Source: the human T2T-CHM13v2.0 reference genome, Homo sapiens
DNA: 64,000 nt
Assembly: GCF_009914755.1 (NCBI RefSeq)
Contig: NC_060940.1
Strand: one strand, 5' to 3'
Shown here: piece by piece, positions 5,202 to 51,070 of the stretch
How the letters are laid out: the number at the start of each line of letters is the position of its first letter
How positions within the stretch are numbered: position 1 is the first letter of the stretch
The notes under the pieces: generated by a model
What the model was told of the DNA's origin: nothing
The model's database searches: none
What the model saw: only the letters and a program-made list of their open reading frames with translations
Program-made: the position numbers and the translations under genes

Positions 5202-5680
<479 letters not shown>

Positions 5681-6449
5681 ACACAACTTTACTCTGTCTT
5701 TTTACAAGATAGCTCTAAGTCAAGTTTTAAAGTTTAATTGTATTTGTTTTTAATTCTTAAAATATGAATGAAAGGAAGTGAAAATGTAAAACAATGTGAA
5801 TTATAATTTACTGTATTTGCAGTTTACTGGTTTAAAATTTACTCACAAGCCTTTTACCTGTCTGCCAAGATGTAATCTTTCCTCCAACATGATATAAGGT
5901 GACTTCTGATCAGCTGCCCCTCACTGAATGTTTTCAGGCACGTTTTTTTTTTTCAAGTTCAATTGCAGGAAGAGTCAAGTAGCTGATATTTACAGAGTTT
6001 TCCCTAGTCTGTAAGGACACAATGCGGCATTCAATTTTGTGGTTTACCTAGCATGCTGGACTCCCTCTGAGGCTTAGTGACTGCCTACCACCAAAAAAAT
6101 AATAGAGGTGCAGGGGATTCTGGGAAATAAATGGATATTATTGAAAAACCAAACAATTGTAAATCAACATACAGGCTTTTTCTAGTCTTATTATTTTCTT
6201 CAGCCATCAAGTGCCTTCCTTATTCATCCGTTTTGTGGATAGAGAGCAAATTCTTTACGTATACATAAAACCAAAGTGTTATCAGCAAGATACTCAATGA
6301 TGTGGAATTTAATGAGGCTGAAACCTTTTGAAAGCCTAGAACTATGAACTTGGCAAAGCAGGAAATGAATTGTATACAATTGAGAGGGAGGATGTTAGAA
6401 AAAAGGCATTACATTCAAAACAGGAAGAAAAGGCTGAAAAATGTGATCA

Positions 6450-27339: not shown

Positions 27340-28113
27340 TGAGGCAGGAAAAATAAGGATAGGGGGCCATCCTGACTCACCTCTTGTGTGAAGCCTCGCG
27401 AGCTCCTTTTGCAGTGGGTTCTGTGTCCCTTACACTGTTGTGCACTTTACTCTCTTGCAAGATAAACAGTCTTACAGGATACCAGCAGACTGCCTGATGG
27501 TGACAAGTTTCCGATACCAAATACAGCCCAGAAAAGAGGACAAAAGGCCTTTATTCATGATGTAGCTTCCCTAATCTCCAGCTAATCAACATCAAAAATC
27601 CAAAAAGCTATTAGCTACAAATTCCTGCCTTGGAGGGGATAGAGACTTCTCCAGGGTTCCGCATGTGCAGCTGGGTTCAAGGTTTAGCCGATAGTGGCCT
27701 TTTAATAGTAAAATTTTATATTTTAATTTTAATAGTAAAATTTTGTATTTTAATTTTAATAGTAAAATTTTATATTTTAATAGTAAAATACACACTCTAG
27801 GTGGAGATTTTATACGCTAATGATACATGCAGTGCATGTTAGAGCACGTAGATGCTGACCGCATGTGCCAACCACAGGTCTGCCTTTGCATACTTGACCT
27901 CCCCAGGATTTTATGAATATTTATGGGCAATTCCCATAAAGGGAATTCCCTTAGGGCACTAGGGACTGTCCTCCCTCCTTTTCAGCAGCCTGCTCTGCCT
28001 CTCAAGTGTACTTTTGCTTTGCAATAAACTTATTTGCCTTCTTTTACTTTAAACTCCCTCTCAAATTCTTTTGTGTGGTGAAGTCAAGAATCTGAGCTAG
28101 CCCAATGGCAATA
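27340..28113 (+). mobile_element. ERV1 (MER4-group) solo LTR
   Basis: tgaggcagga start; gcaataaactt polyA signal ~28021; caaattcttttgtgtggtgaagtcaagaa U5; flanks cttc/cttt. Confidence 0.75.
27700..27789. repeat. 27-bp tandem repeat (~3.3 copies) inside the LTR
   Basis: Unit ttttaatagtaaaattttatattttaa; produces the repetitive LLLKLKYKI ORF. Confidence 0.9.
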
Positions 28114-29912
28114 CTTTAACATTTTAAACCTCAGCACAAGAAAGGTTGGTTTTACTACCCCTGCTTTATAGATGAGCAAGCAGGATAAATAACTTGGTTA
28201 TGTTTGTTTAACTAGTATCGTAGTCAGGGTTTTTCTTTTTTCCAGACGCATAAACATACTGAAACTTACTGAAATGATATAGGGATTCTAAATGAAGCTC
28301 CCTCTTTACGGACAAGGCTGCTGTGTATGGCTTTGCAGGCTGTACCACTGCACGATTTTAGGGAGAGCTGTGCATCACAGGGGCTGGGAAGCCAGGGTGT
28401 CTGAGGCAACTTGAAATTGGCATCTTGTTGAAACTTGGGCACTCCGGCTTTTGGAAATAAGTAAATGGTTATCTCCACTGTTCTCTGCCATTATTATTAT
28501 TGTTGTTGTAGTCACTAGTACTGCTGCTGCTAATGCTGTCAGTGCTGCTACTATGGTAGTTATTCTCTGTTTAGAATGTCCATAAATTCAGCTGGTCCAT
28601 GAACAATCATGTTCTTCCTGCCTATGTCAGCATGATTTTTCACATTCATGGTCTATGGCTGTCAACCTTCTTCTCTGTCTCTTAGTTCAAGTTTCTGTAA
28701 TAATCTGATCAGATGAGCTTGTCACTGTTTTATACCAGACAAAGCCTTATGAGTCTTATTGGCCAATGACCAATAAGAATGCCCCTTTTCAGGTCTGGTT
28801 TATACCATGAGTGCAATTAGCTGAGGCCTGGGGTGAAGTTGTATGACACAGAGAAAATGTGGTGCATTCACCAGAAACAACTCCAGATGTTTTTGCTGAG
28901 TAATGGCTGATACATGTTAATGGAAGTAAAAACAATTTCAAATAATTTCTCATAAAGGCACATTTAAAACTTTTCAGTTACCTGTAAGCAGGATATCAAA
29001 TTTTATGTGAATTATGTTCAAAATGGCAATTATGAAAGTTTATATAAAATAGATATAGGGTTATCTGTGAAATTTAACATTGGTTATCCCTCTATGCATC
29101 TACAGATCTACAGAGGTCACCTCGTTTTTCTTTTATTTCTAAAAACAGCTTAAAAAGGTTTAATAATTAAAATAATCAACTATTATTATATTGGGGGTCA
29201 ACAATTATGTAAATTGTATATCGTTTATATATTTAATATAGTCTAATTATATATTACTATATTTTATATCATATTATTGTTGAAGTTTCAAATGTATTTT
29301 TAGTTTTATTAATTGATTAATGTTTTCTGTATTTTCCACAATCCCTTTTGTTTTACAATTTTATGACATTAAATGCAATATTTATATAAAATGTTAATAT
29401 TTAAAATTATATAATATGAAATATGAGCAAACATTTATTTAATGTCTAATATTAAAAATCATTTGCAATTTTGGAACTAATATAAATGAATAAAGCTGTC
29501 ACTTTCAATATGTATAGTATATAATAAAAATGTATATAATTATTCAATAGGACTCAATTGCTTTAAGTTCCTGGGGTAAAAAGAATCTCATCAAAAACAA
29601 AGCTTTCCAAAGGATTTGTTGTTTATTCTTGAAAAAAAAAAATTACAGTGGCAAGGAACAGCCAGTAGATCTGTGACCTTTTAGCATGTGCCTCTAACTT
29701 GAGTACTCTCTGACCTTCCAACCAGCAAGTGCAGGCTACGTGAGTGAGCAGGCGGGACCTGGATATTAACGTCTTTCCTAAAAGATTTGAAAACATTCCT
29801 CCTGTTTTAGTCCATCTTCCATTTCCATCTTCAGAGATAATGTGTGCTGTTAATTCCAGAGACTTCCTAGGATTCTGTTGTTGTTGTTGTTGTTATAAAT
29901 ATCTATGCTTAT

Positions 29913-30205
29913 TGTGTTAGTCTGGATCTTCCAAGAAACAGACACCAAGATGGGACTAAACATGCAGAGTGGGGAAAAGACCTGTATGAGAAGAAACGGG
30001 AAGGGGGTGGGAAAGCTCAGATAGCCTTCAGCTCATGATGAAATTCTGTCTCTGGATGGAGGAGAAAGCTAGGGAATGTTGGATTAAAGCATCCTAGATT
30101 TAAGTTGCTGTGCATACCCTAAAGATTTGGTAAAGCCATCTGGGTGTCCTTTAGCCAACATGAGAGCTGTCAGATGAGTTGTTTTTCTGGGAAATTGATT
30201 TGCCT
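29913..30205 (-). mobile_element. Old ERVL LTR fragment, LTR33/LTR41-like
   Basis: tgtgttagtctggatcttccaagaaacagacaccaagatggg. Confidence 0.5.
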
Positions 30206-31548
30206 TCGTGTAGATCTGCCTTTTTCTTTCTCTCTTTTTTTTTAATCTTCAATAAAGATCCTTTATAAAAAATATGCCAGAGGGTCCCCCTAGTGGCATG
30301 GAAGAATTATCCCATCCTAATGCCTCCTTCCAAACAAAGTCTCACTGATAAAGGCTACAGGCATTCTTTACTCCAGGCAACTGTAAGCAAAAAGATTACC
30401 ATGTGACTTCATTTCCATAATGCTGCTAAGGCAGACTAGCTCTCCAGCCTCCCCACCCTGCTCCCTGCGCACTTTTTTTTCTAGCATGGGCAGGGAAAAA
30501 TATCAAACAATCTGTTAATGAGCATTTGGTGAAGTGTAATGAATACAGTCTAATTCACTAATTGAGGCTCATTCCACAACTCTCCACTAATAAGCATCTT
30601 AATGTGCTTAACTGCAAGTGTCCAAAATAGTTATTGAGATGTGTGGAAATTTCCCATTCTGTATGTGAAAATTTTGATAATGTTGCAGCTTGATTAATTG
30701 AGAGAAAATTTTTCACTAACAATGAAGAAAATGTAAAAGCAGGAAAATCATATAATTACATCTTGTAAAATGGACTGACAAATAACATTATTGAAACAAA
30801 TTATTTCCTGAAGTAACTTTTACTGCAGTGGGACACTGATTTCAGTTTCCATGTGATGTCACACAAAACTGACATTGAGAATTTATTTGATTAACTTGTT
30901 AAAAGATATAACAAATAAATTGGTCAATATTTTATTAATTATAAAAGTCAGAAAAGACAAATTTATGATTTTGGTTTCAACCAGATTTATTTTCTTCACC
31001 TTAAAAATGTACCTATTAAAGTTGAAATGAATATAATGAATAAATCAGTTATTATATAAAAACCTTCTCCCGTCTCCCTGTCTGTTTCTTCCTTTCCCAT
31101 CCAATATCCTTTCTTCTTTTTGAGCTTCATTCCTATAGAAGTAAGAAAATTTCTCAAAATGATACTCTTCCATCACTACCTTGAGAACCACCTTTAGCTC
31201 CTTCCAGCTTTGACAGGAAAAGGAGTCTTTTTCTTTAGTTCTAGAAAGGGTCCTAATGTTAGCTTTGATGGTTTCTGGCTCTGATTGGATGATTCCTTAA
31301 CTAATCATTATTAGGAAAAGGAAATGTTCTGATTGCCCACCTCTTCAGCAGGATGTAGCTTCACCTCTCAAACTACAGGACTGGAGGTGAGTAGCTCCCA
31401 TAAGTGGGCATGGCTACTGGAAAGGCACAAATAAAGCACATCACCTACAACCAACAAACAGGAAACTTAAACTTGAAGAATTCCCCTTAGATAATCATCA
31501 TATTCTCCTTTCAAGCCTAAGGTAGAATCTTTAGAAAGATAGACATTG

Positions 31549-31961
31549 ATTAGCATATTAATAGCAGTGAGTATAAAGAGGTCACTTTCACTGCCGTCTT
31601 GGTTTTGGTGGGTTTTGGCTGGCTTCTTTTTTGCATTCTGTTTTATCAGTAGGGTCTTTGTGAACTGTATCTTATGCAGATCTCCTGTCTCATCCTGTGA
31701 CTAAGGATGCCTGAACTCCTGGGAATGCAGCCCAGTAGGTCTCAGCACTATTTTACCCAGCCCCTATTCAAGATGGAGTTGCTCTGGTTCTAAGGCCTCT
31801 TACAGTTGATTCAAAGCCAAAAAATGAAAGCAGTGGTCAGGAGTGGAGACCAAGCTGGATCCCTCTTGTTTCATTTCCTTTATGGAACAGCACACCATTA
31901 GAGGGTCAGGTGGATCAGCCCAGATGTGGGAATAGGCTCACTGCTGGGGGAACTCTGGACA
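31549..31961 (-). repeat. Left arm of a local inverted duplication (MER41 5' part plus flank)
   Basis: Hand alignment: reverse complement of 32875-33292, including a 94-bp perfect run at 31749-31842. Confidence 0.97.
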
Positions 31962-32789
31962 TTTAGTACAGGTAAAAAAATATCCCTGGAGAAGTCAGAA
32001 TACTTTTTTGTCTCATCAGGCTATGTTGTTTTGAGAAATACAGTGTCCAGGTAACCCTAGATAATGTAGCACATCTTTCTTCAATCATAAAATGCAAGTG
32101 ATTTTTCTCTTCCCAGTATACCTATGAAATATTTTTATGACATTCCATGGAAAAACAGTTGTATCAATCTTTACTATAAATATTTCTTCTCAGTGGTAAT
32201 ATCTTCCTTGTAGTGAAGGCAAATCCATCTTTTTGTACTGATTTTATTCTTTTTAAATTTTTTTTTTTTCTAGAATAACCCAGTCCTTGGCAAGAAATAA
32301 GGAAAACTACTTAAACTCCATTTCCTGCTCTACCTGCCCCAGAATTTTATTCCTCAGCTCTGGTCCAAACCTCCCACTTACCAGCTATGTAATGAAGTCA
32401 ATGTATTCTAAAAAGTTTAAAAATTCTTTATATCCATGTGCACAATCAGCAAGTCATTTGGAATTTCCAAACAAATTCAACAAGCATAAGGATATATATG
32501 TATAGATACATGCTTATTGGCAGAATCTCTTCTGAATGCGAATGAGAAGAACTGGCTTAAGCTATATAAGGTCATTTACGTACCAAGAATGAGTGTGGCA
32601 TTGATACAGGGGATAACTGAGGAATGAAGGAGATTCACTACATGTCAGAAAAAGTGCAGTGTTCATTGCAAACTATTGTCTGGGAGCCAATAAACCAAAT
32701 CTGCTTCTATCTGACAATGCTGGTATAGACAAGTCGACTAATATCTTAGCCTCATTTTCTCTGATCTGAAACATCATTTCTCCCCTCTG

Positions 32790-33035
32790 ACTCAGTATTC
32801 AGTAATTCTCCACCCCTAGAATTTCCTCCTCTACCTCTCCCTAGCCCTTGGGTCCATAAAACTATAGGAGCCTTTGTCCAGAGTTCCCCAGCAGTGAGCC
32901 CACTCCCGCATCTGGGCTGATCCACATGACCCAACCCTCTAACAGTGTGCTGTTCCATAAAGGAAATGAAAGAAGAAGGAGCCAGCTTTGTCTCCATTCC
33001 TGACCACTGCTTTCATTTTTTGGCTTTGAATCAAC
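32790..33035 (+). mobile_element. Probable old ERVL LTR (MER54/MER74-like) hosting MER41; resumes at ~33666-33720
   Basis: ccttgggtccataaaactataggagcctttgtccagagttcccc, a TATA-like LTR segment; family recalled, not searched. Confidence 0.4.
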
Positions 33036-33665
33036 TGTAAGAGGCCTTAGAACCAGAGCAACTCCATCTTGAATAGGGGCTGGGTAAAATAATGCTGAGA
33101 CCTACTGGGCTGCATTCCCAGGAGTTCAGGCATCCTTAGTCACAGGATGAGACAGGAGATCAGCATAAGATACAGTTCACAAAGACCCTGCTGATAAAAC
33201 AGAATGCAAAAAAGAAGCCAGCCAAAACCCACCAAAACCAAGACGGCAATGAAAGTGACCTCTGGTTGTACTCACTGCTATTAATACGCTAATTATAATG
33301 CATTAACCTGCTAAAAGACACTCCCACCAGTGCCATGACAGTTTACAAACACCATGACAATGTCAGGAAGTTATTCTATATGGTCTAAAAAGGGAAGGAA
33401 CCCTCAGTTCTGAGAATTGCCCACCCCTTTCCTGGAAAACTCATGAATAATCCACCCATTACTTAGCATATAATCAAGAAATAACTGTAAGTATACTCAG
33501 TTGAGCAGCCCATGACACTGTTCTGCCTATGGAGTAACCATTCTTTAATTTCTTTACTTTATTAATAAACTTGCTTTCACTTTACCCTATGGACTTGCCC
33601 TGAATTCTTTCTTTGCACCAATTCCAAGAGCCCTCTCTGGGGGTCTGGATCCCTTTCCGGTAACA
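33036..33665 (+). mobile_element. MER41 (MER41B-like) ERV1 solo LTR
   Basis: tgtaagaggcc...gaaccagagcaactccatcttgaataggggctggg start; AATAAA ~33564; ccctttccggtaaca end; TSD CAAC at 33032-33035 and 33666-33669. Confidence 0.93.
33408..33437 (+). promoter_or_regulatory. Tandem GAS (STAT) motifs in MER41
   Basis: TTCTGAGAA (33408-33416) and TTCCTGGAA (33429-33437) both fit TTCN3GAA; function not shown. Confidence 0.6.
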
Positions 33666-34568
33666 CAACTACTCTTGACACCTGGCACCCAGCTCTCCGT
33701 AGTTCAGCTGAGCTCCTCTCTTTCTCTCTCTCTCTCACATACAAGATGGGCAGCACTTAGATATTCATCATTTTAAGGAAATTGGCTTCCCTGGAACTTG
33801 CAAACATTCCATTAGTATATATCAATTTTTTACATACCGAATCTCTTTATCTTTCCATAACTTTTCTAATGGAATCGACTTCAGGAAATCATGAGATCTT
33901 GACTTGGCAAAGAAAACTTCCTTATAACCTTTTAATAGAATATCACATATATGACATGAAAAGAATGTTGACTAAAGGTAAGCCTAAGAGTACTGCGTTT
34001 CACAGTAGATTTTGGGTGGGTAGCTTATGTAAAATACATGAAGTAAGTTTAAGCCAAGTATCAGGCCTGACAAAGTGACGAGTTAGAATGGAGTTTGGAA
34101 ATCAAGTAAGATAACCGAAAAAAAAAAAAAGAAAAACAATTCATGATGTCTTATGGAATTCCTGTAATTGGGGTATACATTTGGTCTGATTTTCCTGGCA
34201 ATCCAAGTGAAAGGGGGAATATAAATGATTACATAATTCTCCTTTTTCACATATTAAAAAAATGTGCTGAATCCTCAGGCATGGTTGGCACTTCCCAGAA
34301 TTTCTCTCTTAAGTAAAGTTGTCACACAATGCTTCAGAAAGGAATGTGAAGGGATGAATAATCTTCATAAGGGGAGAAGACTTCACAGTCTTCTTCACAG
34401 AAATAAAAGAGTGATTAAAAACAAGCATCAGGGTGGACGTGTACCAGTTTAGAAAGGCCCAAAGAAATGACTTTGAAAATGTTGTGTCTTTCATCCTTTG
34501 GTAGTTCCTTTCCTTTGTGGGATCTTACCTCTTACTCTTATTATTCCCTAGAGGGAATTATTTTAAAG

Positions 34569-35062
34569 AAGTGGCTCTCAAAGTACAGTCACAGTACTGG
34601 TAACAGCAGCATTAAGTGGAACTTTATTAGAAATGCAAATTCTCGGGTCCACTTGCTGAGTCAGAAATTCTAGAGGTAGAGCCCAGCAATATGATTTAAG
34701 AAGCCTCCATATGCTTGGCATGGAGGCTCTACCTATAATCTCAGCATTTTGGGATCCTGAGGCAGGAAGGTCATTTGAGGTTAGGAGCTTGAGACTAGCC
34801 TGGGCAACATAAGGAGACTCTGTCTACAAAAACTTTAAAAATTAGTCCAGCATGGTGTCATGCACCTGTAGTCCCAGCTACTCAGGAGGCTGAGGTGGGA
34901 GGATCACTTAATCCCAGGAGTTTGGGGCTGCAGTGAGCTATTGATCATGCCACTGCACTCCAGCCAAGGTAGCAGAACAAGACCTCATCTATGAAAAAAA
35001 TAAAATAAAATAAAATAAACCTCCATGTGATTCTGATGTACATTCCATTCTGAAAACCAGTG
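34569..35062. mobile_element. MER5A split by an AluJ
   Basis: gtggctctcaaagt...ttagaaatgcaaattctcggg...cccagcaat; resumes gtgattctgatg...gaaaaccagtg. Confidence 0.85.
34713..35016 (+). mobile_element. AluJ SINE
   Basis: gcctgggcaacata, ggaggatcactt, gctgcagtgagcta; (TAAAA)n tail; degenerate TSD aagcctccatat/aaacctccatgt. Confidence 0.9.
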
Positions 35063-35769
35063 CTCTACAGCCTTATTTCTTGCCTCCTGCACATTATTCC
35101 TTCACTTTAGGATTCTCTACTAAAACTCTCTGACATCTAGACACATGATTATCTAGTTACTGTCTCAAAGGAGACCTCCCTCTATCTCAGTTAGAACCAG
35201 CTTCTTATGGCTTGTTGGGAAAATCTCATTTTATGAATAAAAAATAATGAATCTGTAACTTACAAAATGACTTCTATCAATCATGTTAACAACCTCAGCA
35301 GAAGGTTATCTTGGTAATTTATCTGTATCAGCTACTTCTCACTGTGACTCAGATATTTAGAGATGTAGTTGCAAATGTGCAATTAGAACAATTTGGAAGA
35401 GAGTGACTAACAAGGAAACGCAGTTGTTCTCTTAGCTGAAGATGAAGAAGCAGGGTCTTGCATTATGGCATGTGGTCTAGAACTTGTTAAACTAGAACAA
35501 AGATACCTGAAGTATCCTCTAGTACAAAACATAACCCTGAAGTTAAAGATCAGTAGAGCATCTATGTGGTTCAGGCATTTCATTTATTCAATAAATAGGA
35601 ACTTATGTATACATTTATCTCAAAGAGTATAAATACCTTCAAATGTATTTATGATTGTGCGTATGCTAGCCTGAGGTAAGAGCGCGCCATCAAAACTAGA
35701 GTACAATGCCAAGCTCAAAAATGCTGACTTGTCAAAGCATTCTGATATGGTAGAAACATGAGGAACTAT

Positions 35770-41262: not shown

Positions 41263-41298
<36 letters not shown>
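41263..41298. repeat. (CA)n microsatellite in L1
   Basis: Direct reading. Confidence 0.95.
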
Positions 41299-41299
<1 letters not shown>

Positions 41300-50927: not shown

Positions 50928-51070
50928 ATCTCTCTTTCTCCCTCTTCCTCTTTTTCTCTCCTTCTCTCTCTCTCTCTCTTTCTCTCTGGCTCTTTCTCCT
51001 CCCAATTCTTCCCCATCTCCACTCTTTCTCCATCCCTCTCCTTCTCTCCCTCTCTCTGAACTGTCTCTAT
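50928..51070. repeat. CT-rich polypyrimidine/polypurine tract
   Basis: ~140 bp almost all C/T, including (CT)n. Confidence 0.9.

What the first reader, a model, noticed from the sequence alone, without database searches (positions are those of the whole stretch)
31549..33292. ~410-bp inverted duplication across a MER41 insertion junction, ~0.9 kb spacer: candidate flip-flop inversion
Seen: 31549-31961 is the reverse complement of 32875-33292. The match covers ~255 bp of the MER41 5' end plus ~160 bp of non-MER41 flank and crosses the CAAC TSD, so these are not two independent LTR insertions. The right arm is the donor, because its LTR is complete with both TSDs; the left arm is a later inverted copy. 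Established: short, closely spaced, high-identity inverted repeats can mediate recurrent inversion of the spacer by non-allelic homologous recombination. Inference: the 31962-32874 spacer may be orientation-polymorphic. If transcribed, the locus would fold into a ~400-bp dsRNA stem, a possible ADAR/MDA5 substrate next to an interferon-responsive LTR family. I cannot tell whether this is already catalogued.
Basis: partly seen in the sequence, partly recalled or inferred. Interest (0 to 1): 0.75.

Follow-up and report, generated by a model that had tools for sequence, protein, structure and literature searches.

The report
Old inverted copy of MER41B junction
A roughly 415-base piece spanning the edge of an ancient retroviral LTR (MER41B) and its neighbouring host DNA was copied backwards about 0.9 kb away many millions of years ago, in a gene desert; it is a real but ordinary genomic scar with no sign of function.

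Summary
Window 31549-31961 is the reverse complement of 32875-33293, with 18 mismatches and 3 indels in 412 aligned columns. The copy spans 157 bp of host flank, the CAAC target-site duplication and the first 258 bp of a 630-bp solo LTR at 33036-33665.

The LTR is MER41B-like (ERV1). It aligns over its full length at 82.6% to the LTR that print names as the MER41B promoter of BANCR.

The right arm is the donor. An older dispersed repeat runs unbroken from the spacer into the right arm, but is cut off exactly at the inner end of the left arm.

Both arms carry their own derived changes. The duplication is therefore old and is not an assembly artefact. It dates to about 10-19 My from the whole arm and about 25-45 My from its most diverged part. 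Divergence is uneven (23 of 2000 permutations), which suggests later partial gene conversion.

The flip-flop inversion and dsRNA ideas could not be tested here. CHM13 shows the ancestral orientation, the longest identical run is 94 bp, and no transcript is annotated. Interest is low.

The parts
31549..31961 (-). Left arm, the derived inverted copy (413 bp). It consists of the LTR-derived part at 31549-31804, the copied target-site duplication GTTG at 31805-31808, and the copied host flank at 31809-31961.
   Evidence: It holds a truncated piece of the old repeat that starts exactly at 31961. It is the only other LTR-like piece in the window.
31962..32874 (.). Spacer of 913 bp. It is unique sequence except for its last ~110 bp, which belong to an old dispersed repeat. 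In CHM13 it lies in the ancestral orientation relative to the donor arm.
32875..33293 (+). Right arm, the donor (419 bp). It consists of host flank at 32875-33031, the target-site duplication CAAC at 33032-33035, and the first 258 bp (U3 end) of the LTR at 33036-33293.
   Evidence: The old repeat is continuous across 32874|32875 in 13 of 13 copies.
33036..33665 (+). Complete MER41B-like solo LTR (630 bp, TG...CA), flanked by the 4-bp target-site duplication CAAC at 33032-33035 and 33666-33669. It includes AATAAA at 33564-33569.
   Evidence: Direct reading. There are 39 other full-length matches in the reference at 83-85% identity, out of 4147 first-look candidates of which 40 were scored. It aligns at 82.6% over 1-630 to the LTR at the BANCR start site that print names as MER41B.
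33408..33437 (+). Two GAS-type (STAT1) half-palindromes 21 bp apart centre to centre. They lie in the LTR but outside the duplicated arm.
   Evidence: 1 match in the window, 0 in 100 shuffles. This spacing is stated for the MER41B consensus in PMC2897888.
33451..33476 (+). Match (23 of 26 bases) to the 26-mer that Schmid and Bucher attribute to MER41B.
   Evidence: 1 match in the window, 0 in 100 shuffles.
32763..33013 (.). Fragment of an older, unnamed dispersed repeat (copies 64-75% identical elsewhere). It spans the spacer/right-arm boundary. Most copies align to about 32763-32932, and the longest reaches 33013.
32998..33286 (.). Low-divergence tract of the arms, with 5 mismatches in 287 columns against 13 in 125 outside it. 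Its counterpart in the left arm is 31556-31842. It is a candidate gene-conversion tract.
   Evidence: (23 of 2000 permutations reach the statistic).

Best explanation
This is a fixed, ancient, one-off local inverted duplication, reconstructed in four steps.

1. A MER41B-type class I endogenous retrovirus integrated here in an early simian ancestor, making a CAAC target-site duplication. It was later reduced to a solo LTR.
2. Later, a 419-bp stretch was copied in reverse-complement orientation and inserted 913 bp upstream. The stretch holds 157 bp of upstream host DNA, the target-site duplication and the first 258 bp of the LTR.
3. The most likely mechanism is a single switch-and-return event, either a template switch during replication or templated repair of a break. 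In such an event the growing strand copies a nearby stretch from the opposite strand and then returns.
4. The two arms then diverged. Most of the arm, about 32998-33286, was probably homogenised later by gene conversion between the arms.

Shown: the structure, the donor/copy polarity, the family, and divergence on both arms. Inferred: the mechanism, the gene conversion and the dates. The locus has no detectable function.
For: Structure.

Single origin: the flank occurs only in the two arms across the whole reference.

Polarity: the LTR on the right is complete with both target-site duplications. 13 of 13 old-repeat copies cross 32874|32875. Matches to the left arm (8 of 13 copies) start at the inner end of the arm or inside it.

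Family:
- It aligns over its full length at 82.6% to the LTR holding the BANCR start site, which PMC5134097 names as MER41B, ERV1 (passages).
- It matches the 26-mer attributed to MER41B at 23 of 26 bases.
- It has tandem GAS sites 21 bp apart (PMC2897888).
- It has a 4-bp target-site duplication, as PMC11905727 lists for class I elements.

Age of the LTR: the mean K2P distance to 29 other copies is 0.168, and it is 0.169 among those copies (406 pairs). That is about 0.084 per lineage. Print places MER41 entry in the simian ancestor, between roughly 43 and 69 My ago (PMC11905727).

Age of the duplication: K2P is 0.045 for the whole arm (10-19 My) and 0.111 for the inner 118 columns (25-46 My).

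Both arms carry their own derived states.
- In the LTR part the left arm holds the rare state at 4 substitutions and one 2-bp deletion, carried by 0-2 of 29 copies.
- In the flank part the right arm holds a 1-bp deletion (0 against 11 of 13), a 5-bp insertion (0 against 13 of 13) and further substitutions. The left arm is derived at 32981 and 32989.
- 10 of 13 old-repeat copies score higher with the left inner part than with the right.

Heterogeneity: 5 of 287 columns differ inside the tract against 13 of 125 outside, and 23 of 2000 permutations reach this. The last 43 columns are again diverged (3 mismatches, Poisson P=0.016 against the central rate; post hoc), which is what unconverted edges would look like.

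Against: - No other species or haplotype could be examined, so neither the ancestral state without the left arm nor the dates are directly verified.
- No microhomology is detectable at either junction by direct reading. Template switching usually leaves 2-5 bp (recalled), though tens of millions of years of decay could have erased it.
- That 31548 and 31962 were once adjacent cannot be tested, because both sides are unique sequence.
- The published template-switch model was applied to events of tens of bases, not to about 400 bp copied from 0.9 kb away.
- The gene-conversion reading rests on only 18 mismatches.
- Within the low-divergence tract the left arm carries 5 clear derived events and the right arm none (binomial P=0.06; P=0.22-0.45 if the 2 ambiguous sites are counted for the right arm). 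This asymmetry is unexplained.
Confidence: 0.75

Rival explanations
1. Two-step origin. A short inverted duplication of the host flank alone is the older event. Much later, a break next to the left copy was repaired by invading the right copy and copying on through the target-site duplication into 258 bp of LTR, and the repair ended by end-joining.
For: The inner 118 columns are 10.2% diverged, against 1.7% for 32998-33286. The divergence boundary (32997|32998) lies inside the flank, 38 bp before the LTR, as a homology-primed extension would predict.
Against: The last 43 columns of the arm are again diverged (3 mismatches against 0.51 expected, P=0.016; post hoc). That fits an internal conversion tract better than a uniformly young outer part. 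This model also needs two rare events at the same spot.
Confidence: 0.13
2. Active flip-flop locus. The arms still recombine, and the 913-bp spacer is orientation-polymorphic in humans or differs among apes.
For: The uneven divergence is compatible with a past exchange between the arms, with the central tract dated to about 3-7 My. Of 132 balanced inversions that look NAHR-mediated in 41 human genomes, 31 are flanked by mobile-element pairs. The Alu-flanked ones have a median size of 685 bp, and only 1 of 9 Alu pairs is more than 90% identical (bioRxiv 10.1101/2021.12.20.472354). Closely spaced repeats can recombine with short identity stretches (PMC2583991).
Against: CHM13 shows the ancestral orientation. 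The arms are shorter than the smallest inverted repeat (654 bp) among the 24 validated NAHR inversions (PMC6748972). The longest identical run is 94 bp, whereas a drop from 232 to 134 bp already cut recombination 20-fold in cultured cells, and the human meiotic estimate is 300-500 bp (PMC2583991). A full-text search found no paper on an inversion here, but inversion call sets sit in supplements that were closed.
Confidence: 0.05
3. Inversion by staggered breaks, which leaves inverted duplications at both ends of the inverted segment, followed by a re-inversion through the arms.
For: It yields the same final structure as a simple inverted insertion (my reasoning from the structure).
Against: After a single staggered-break inversion, no copy keeps both of its ancestral neighbours. 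Here the right arm keeps both: the old repeat on one side and the rest of the LTR on the other. A second event is therefore required, which makes this less parsimonious.
Confidence: 0.04
4. Functional RNA hairpin. The locus is transcribed through both arms and forms a stem of about 400 bp that is edited by ADAR or sensed by MDA5.
For: If it were one RNA, the minimum-energy fold pairs 398 (+ strand) or 404 (- strand) positions arm to arm, and the arm duplex is -768.5 kcal/mol.
Against: No gene, transcript or functional element is annotated in the window, and the nearest protein-coding gene, CDH8, ends about 221 kb away. The window has no Rfam family match. The LTR is sense-oriented away from the spacer, and by analogy with BANCR its start site would lie near LTR position 512, downstream of the arm. 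An LTR-driven transcript would therefore not contain both arms.
Confidence: 0.03
5. Assembly artefact, or two independent MER41 insertions.
For: None found.
Against: The arms differ at 18 substitutions and 3 indels, with derived states on both arms. An artefactual duplicate would be nearly identical. Independent insertions cannot share the same 157-bp unique flank and target-site duplication.
Confidence: 0.01

Closest known systems
MER41B solo LTRs (ERV1, gammaretrovirus-like), for example the LTR that promotes the lncRNA BANCR
   Same: It aligns over its full length (1-630) at 82.6%. It has TG...CA ends, a 4-bp target-site duplication, tandem GAS sites 21 bp apart and the 26-mer attributed to MER41B. 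Its divergence from other copies is typical: p=0.149, the same as among those copies.
   Different: No promoter or enhancer activity is known or annotated here. Subfamily B against E cannot be settled without a reference library: PMC2897888 Table 2 lists the 21-bp spacing for both MER41B and MER41E.
Inverted repeats created by replication template switching (four-point model, Loytynoja and Goldman 2017, PMC5453318) and the larger FoSTeS/MMBIR events
   Same: [quoted passage not shown]
   Different: It is about ten times longer than the short-range events that model was applied to, and far smaller than typical FoSTeS/MMBIR rearrangements. No microhomology is visible at the junctions.
[quoted passage not shown]
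   Same: The architecture is the same: two inverted repeats more than 90% identical bracketing a unique segment.
   Different: The arms are 413 and 419 bp, against 654 bp to 24.2 kb. The longest identical run is 94 bp. No second orientation is known.
Small balanced inversions flanked by inverted Alu or L1 pairs (Porubsky et al. preprint, 10.1101/2021.12.20.472354)
   Same: Short mobile-element-derived inverted repeats flank a sub-kilobase to kilobase segment. The Alu-flanked median is 685 bp, and here the segment is 913 bp.
   Different: Those pairs are independent insertions of one family. Here the pair is a local duplication that carries host flank as well. LTR pairs are not among the 31 cases described in the text I saw (22 L1, 9 Alu).
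Segmental duplications / low-copy repeats
   Same: It is an intrachromosomal duplicate of more than 90% identity.
   Different: It is below the 1-kb length in the definition quoted in PMC4195946, so standard segmental-duplication tracks would not list it.

Membership tests
MER41 (ERV1) LTR, B-like subfamily | Full-length sequence similarity to an LTR named MER41B in print | tested here: met
   82.6% identity over 637 columns, query 1-630, to G000 chr9:81473580-81474208. That stretch contains the BANCR start. PMC5134097 names the BANCR promoter LTR as MER41B, 629 bp.
MER41 (ERV1) LTR, B-like subfamily | Two GAS (STAT1) sites in tandem, 21 bp centre to centre, as stated for the MER41B consensus in PMC2897888 | tested here: met
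   33408-33437 is the only match in the window, with 0 in 100 shuffles. The same spacing is listed for MER41E, so it does not separate B from E.
MER41 (ERV1) LTR, B-like subfamily | The 26-mer motif that PMC2897888 Table 1 attributes to MER41B | tested here: met
   23 of 26 bases at 33451-33476. It is the only match in the window at up to 3 mismatches, with 0 in 100 shuffles.
MER41 (ERV1) LTR, B-like subfamily | Class I hallmarks: TG...CA termini and a 4-bp target-site duplication | tested here: met
   TG at 33036, CA at 33664-33665, and CAAC on both sides. The table in PMC11905727 lists 4 bp for class I elements.
MER41 (ERV1) LTR, B-like subfamily | A family of several thousand copies of simian age | tested here: met
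   4147 first-look candidates, of which 40 were scored. About 4110 solitary LTRs are given in PMC5134097 Table 1. The distance of about 0.084 per lineage fits entry between about 43 and 69 My ago (PMC11905727). Presence or absence in other primates was not testable.
MER41 (ERV1) LTR, B-like subfamily | Assignment against the reference subfamily consensus sequences (A, B, C, D, E, G) | not testable with these tools
   No Dfam, Repbase or RepeatMasker library is on hand, and I built no consensus.
Inverted-repeat (NAHR) mediated recurrent inversion | Inverted repeats of high identity bracketing the segment | tested here: met
   413 and 419 bp at 95.6% identity.
Inverted-repeat (NAHR) mediated recurrent inversion | Repeat length and uninterrupted identity in the range of validated cases | tested here: not met
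   The arms are shorter than 654 bp, the smallest inverted repeat of the 24 NAHR inversions in PMC6748972. The longest identical run is 94 bp, against 134-232 bp in cell culture and 300-500 bp in human meiosis (PMC2583991).
Inverted-repeat (NAHR) mediated recurrent inversion | Both orientations observed among haplotypes or species | not testable with these tools
   Only one haplotype (CHM13) is available, and it has the ancestral orientation. Inversion call sets are in closed supplements.
Template-switch / templated-insertion inverted duplication | A nearby fragment copied in reverse complement, with the donor left intact in its ancestral context | tested here: met
Template-switch / templated-insertion inverted duplication | Microhomology at the switch points | tested here: not met
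   The bases adjoining both junctions mismatch, and there is no similarity beyond the ends. Decay over more than 10 My makes this a weak test.
Template-switch / templated-insertion inverted duplication | Ancestral allele without the insert seen in an outgroup | not testable with these tools
Segmental duplication (low-copy repeat) | At least 1 kb long and at least 90% identical | tested here: not met
   The identity criterion is met, but the length is only 413 and 419 bp. The definition is as quoted in PMC4195946.

The most novel reading that the evidence does not exclude
The two arms are still recombining. The central roughly 250-290 bp was homogenised within the last few million years, and the 913-bp spacer flips between orientations in humans or among great apes. 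That would make this one of the shortest inverted-repeat pairs known to toggle, and one built from an LTR junction rather than from Alu, L1 or large duplications.
Probability: 0.05. Interest if true: 0.45.

Novelty: new member of a known kind. Interest (0 to 1): 0.2.

Why it matters
The significance is modest.

- It is a cleanly resolved example of a mid-sized (about 0.4 kb) local inverted duplication. The donor/copy polarity can be proved from one genome, because the copy crosses two datable landmarks: an LTR insertion junction and an older repeat.
- Events of this size fall between the tens-of-bases template switches and the kilobase-to-megabase rearrangements that are usually catalogued. 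They also fall below the 1-kb cut-off of segmental-duplication tracks.
- The uneven divergence offers a small natural test of whether gene conversion operates between very short, closely spaced inverted repeats.
- Nothing points to an effect on genes, immunity or disease.

Tried and rejected
Error-prone copying as the cause of the diverged inner part. Rejected, because the donor (right) arm itself carries derived changes there, and 10 of 13 outgroup copies score higher with the left arm, 2 with the right, 1 tie.

A single crossover or inversion as the cause of the mosaic of derived states. Rejected on logic: the original inner donor segment always stays attached to the spacer end that continues the old repeat, and that continuity is on the right arm.

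The flank plus spacer as a DNA transposon with long terminal inverted repeats. Rejected. The flank has only 2 places in the reference, and the first ~800 bp of the spacer has none beyond itself.

Homology beyond the stated ends. None found.

A 14-base stretch between a possible TTTAG direct repeat and the left arm, as a second templated piece. It is unique in the window, so the idea was dropped.

The AIM2 upstream element as a named MER41 comparator. Dropped after PMC11905727 stated that it is an ERV-Saru LTR. The BANCR LTR was used instead.

Scans that added nothing: Rfam (0 matches), tandem repeats, composition, and the sigma-70/terminator scan, which is irrelevant to human DNA.

Literature. 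One search (inversion, CDH8, 16q21, inverted repeat) listed 9 papers, none on this locus. The cytoband is recalled, not computed. One search was seen as a listing only and was not used for claims.

- Read as passages only (find mode): PMC10069462, PMC11905727, PMC2897888, PMC3961182, PMC6748972, 10.1101/2021.12.20.472354, PMC5453318, PMC2583991, PMC4195946, PMC5134097.
- Chuong et al. 2016 is recalled only, not seen.
- The inversion call sets (for example Table S2 of the Porubsky preprint and Supplementary Data 1 of PMC6748972) are supplements. I did not ask for any, and they may list this locus.

The age rate of 2.2e-9 per site per year and the usual 2-5 bp microhomology are recalled values.
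Full report
OBSERVATION.

The repeat finder on 29500-35500 returns no direct families and two inverted pairs: 335 nt at 96% and 47 nt at 91%. They are two pieces of one repeat, split by a small indel.

A gapped alignment sets the arms at 31549-31961 (413 nt) and 32875-33293 (419 nt). There are 412 aligned columns, 18 mismatches (14 transitions, 4 transversions) and three indel events of 1, 5 and 2 bp. Similarity ends abruptly at both ends. In a comparison of the 64-kb window with itself, this is the only repeat pair of at least 200 bp and 88% identity.

ANATOMY.

Direct reading gives a 630-bp LTR at 33036-33665 with TG...CA ends and CAAC on both sides (33032-33035 and 33666-33669). My earlier calls used 33037 as the start, which is one base off. 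One search repeats the counts with the right bound.

The right arm holds 157 bp of host flank, the target-site duplication and the first 258 bp of the LTR. The left arm is its mirror image, with GTTG at 31805-31808.

The flank is unique: a search of the whole reference finds it in 2 places, and both are the arms. The sequence left of the left arm (31150-31548) and the first ~800 bp of the 913-bp spacer are also unique. The window has no other LTR piece. Together with the two target-site duplications, this makes the element a solo LTR. No retroviral gene is present to be described.

WHICH ARM IS THE COPY.

The last ~110 bp of the spacer belong to an older dispersed repeat. With a sensitive alignment, 13 of 13 fetched copies of that repeat align across the spacer/right-arm boundary at 32874|32875, reaching 32893-33013.

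Against the reverse complement of the left arm plus its adjoining spacer, 8 of the 13 copies give matches. All 8 begin at the inner end of the arm or inside it, and none continues into the spacer.

The right arm therefore sits in its ancestral context on both sides: the old repeat on the left and the rest of the LTR on the right. The left arm is the derived copy.

It also follows that CHM13 has the ancestral spacer orientation. A crossover between the arms would carry the old-repeat continuity over to the left arm.

A single staggered-break inversion is excluded as well, because it leaves no copy with both ancestral neighbours.

FAMILY.

The LTR matches 39 other places in the reference over essentially its full length at 83-85%, plus one at 72%. 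There were 4147 first-look candidates, of which 40 were scored.

Three tests from print name it.

- It aligns at positions 1-630 with 82.6% identity to chr9:81473580-81474208, on the strand of BANCR. That stretch contains the annotated BANCR start. Babaian and Mager (PMC5134097, passages) list the BANCR promoter as a 629-bp MER41B LTR of an ERV1 element. They give about 275 internal regions and about 4110 solitary LTRs for MER41.
- The 26-mer that Schmid and Bucher (PMC2897888, passages) attribute to MER41B matches 23 of 26 bases at 33451-33476.
- Two GAS sites lie 21 bp apart, as stated for the MER41B consensus. They are at 33408-33437.

The BANCR comparison also fixes the sense orientation as +. 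The duplicated piece is therefore the U3 (5') end, and the GAS pair lies outside the arms. B against E cannot be separated without a reference library.

The AIM2 element was not used as a comparator, because Frith (PMC11905727, passages) reassigns it to ERV-Saru.

AGES.

The mean distance of this LTR to 29 other copies is p=0.149 (K2P 0.168). Among those 29 it is the same (0.149 and 0.169, 406 pairs). That is about 0.084 substitutions per site per lineage. The 29 copies were the best matches to this LTR, which may bias the figure slightly low.

Frith states that all MER41 subtypes entered in a common ancestor of simians, and gives about 43 and about 69 My as the bounds of that branch. This calibrates the local rate at 1.2-2.0e-9 per site per year.

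| Part of the arm | K2P | Age, local rate | Age at 2.2e-9 (recalled rate) |
|---|---|---|---|
| Whole arm | 0.045 | 11.6-18.6 My | 10.3 My |
| Inner 118 columns | 0.111 | 28-46 My | 25 My |
| 32998-33286 | 0.018 | 4.5-7.3 My | 4.0 My |

With only 18 mismatches the errors are wide.

UNEVEN DIVERGENCE.

A scan for the window with the largest deficit of mismatches picks 32998-33286, with 5 mismatches in 287 columns against 13 in 125 outside. Only 23 of 2000 random placements reach that statistic.

The last 43 columns are again diverged, with 3 mismatches against 0.51 expected at the central rate (P=0.016; post hoc).

Polarising the differences with outgroups gives the following.

- LTR part, using 29 other LTR copies. 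The left arm carries the rare state at 33092 (0 of 29), 33162 (0, against 14 for the right-arm state), 33190 (2 against 27), 33249 (2 against 24) and the 2-bp deletion (0 against 27-28). Sites 33268 (11 against 18) and 33287 (a CpG, 15 against 13) are ambiguous.
- Flank part, using 13 old-repeat copies. The right arm is derived for a 1-bp deletion (0 against 11), a 5-bp insertion (0 against 13), 32932 and 32933 (0 against 10-11) and 32977 (1 against 7). The left arm is derived at 32981 and 32989. Sites 32943 and 32944 look like one CpG that decayed separately on each arm. The remaining sites are ambiguous.
- Independently, 10 of 13 old-repeat copies score higher with the left inner part, 2 with the right, and 1 ties.

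Both arms have therefore evolved on their own. This excludes an assembly artefact, and it excludes copying errors as the sole source of the differences.

The simplest account is one old duplication followed by a later gene-conversion tract over most of the arm. A two-step origin remains possible.

The 5-to-0 excess of left-arm changes inside the tract is not significant (P=0.06) and is unexplained.

MECHANISM.

The product is a reverse-complement copy of a nearby fragment, inserted 0.9 kb away with the donor left intact. This is what the switch-and-return template-switch model produces, and that model can create novel inverted repeats (PMC5453318, passages). Here the scale is larger than the model's authors treated.

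I see no microhomology at either junction. That counts weakly against the model, given the age.

Recurrent inversion. Against it:
- The validated recurrent human inversions use inverted repeats of 654 bp to 24.2 kb (PMC6748972).
- Efficient recombination needs long uninterrupted identity: a drop from 232 to 134 bp gave a 20-fold loss, and the human meiotic estimate is 300-500 bp (PMC2583991). Here the longest identical runs are 94, 69 and 58 bp.

For it:
- The same review notes exchanges with less than 50 bp of identity between closely spaced repeats.
- The Porubsky preprint describes 31 of 132 NAHR-like balanced inversions flanked by L1 (22) or Alu (9) pairs. The Alu-flanked ones have a median size of 685 bp.

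A flip is therefore possible but unlikely to be segregating now. One haplotype cannot decide it, and the call sets are in supplements I could not see.

dsRNA. Folded as one RNA, the unit pairs 398-404 positions arm to arm. However, nothing is annotated as transcribed or regulatory in the window. CDH8 ends about 221 kb away. Rfam has no match. An LTR-driven transcript would run away from the spacer.

VERDICT.

This is a real, old, probably fixed inverted duplication of the 5' junction of a MER41B-like solo LTR in the CDH8-CDH11 gene desert. It was made once by a copy-in-reverse event and partly homogenised since. It is a new example of a known kind of event and is of low general interest.

Noticed in passing
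window 32763-33013: There is a fragment of an old dispersed repeat whose copies on chromosomes 2, 4, 5, 6, 12, 19 and X are 64-75% identical. I could not name it without a repeat library. It was useful as a landmark and as an outgroup.
   Followed up: partly
window 33408-33437: This roughly 8%-diverged solo LTR still has both GAS-type sites at the consensus level, 21 bp apart. Whether STAT1 binds here is unknown.
   Followed up: no
window 31549-31961 and 32875-33293: The derived changes form a mosaic. In the inner ~120 bp the donor arm is the more derived (10 of 13 outgroup copies score higher with the left arm). In the LTR part the copy is the more derived (5 clear events against 0). This is not significant on its own (P=0.06) and is unexplained.
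   Followed up: partly
G000 chr15:61600305-61600931 and 61600984-61601523 (L033): Two matches to the LTR lie 53 bp apart on the same strand, one at 83% identity and one at 72%. This may be two different MER41-type LTRs side by side.
   Followed up: no
window 33374-33494: The RefSeq masked-repeat table marks only 121 bp of the 630-bp LTR and none of the left arm. That mask would not reveal the duplication.
   Followed up: no
window 27700-27781; 5486-5681; 50931-51057; 41263-41299: Ordinary tandem repeats are present: a 27-bp unit in 3 copies (96% matches), an AT-rich microsatellite block, a CT-rich array and a (CA)18 run.
   Followed up: no
literature (PMC11905727): The often-cited 'MER41' enhancer of AIM2 is reassigned in print to a separate low-copy LTR type, ERV-Saru. 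It is therefore a poor reference for typing MER41 copies.
   Followed up: yes
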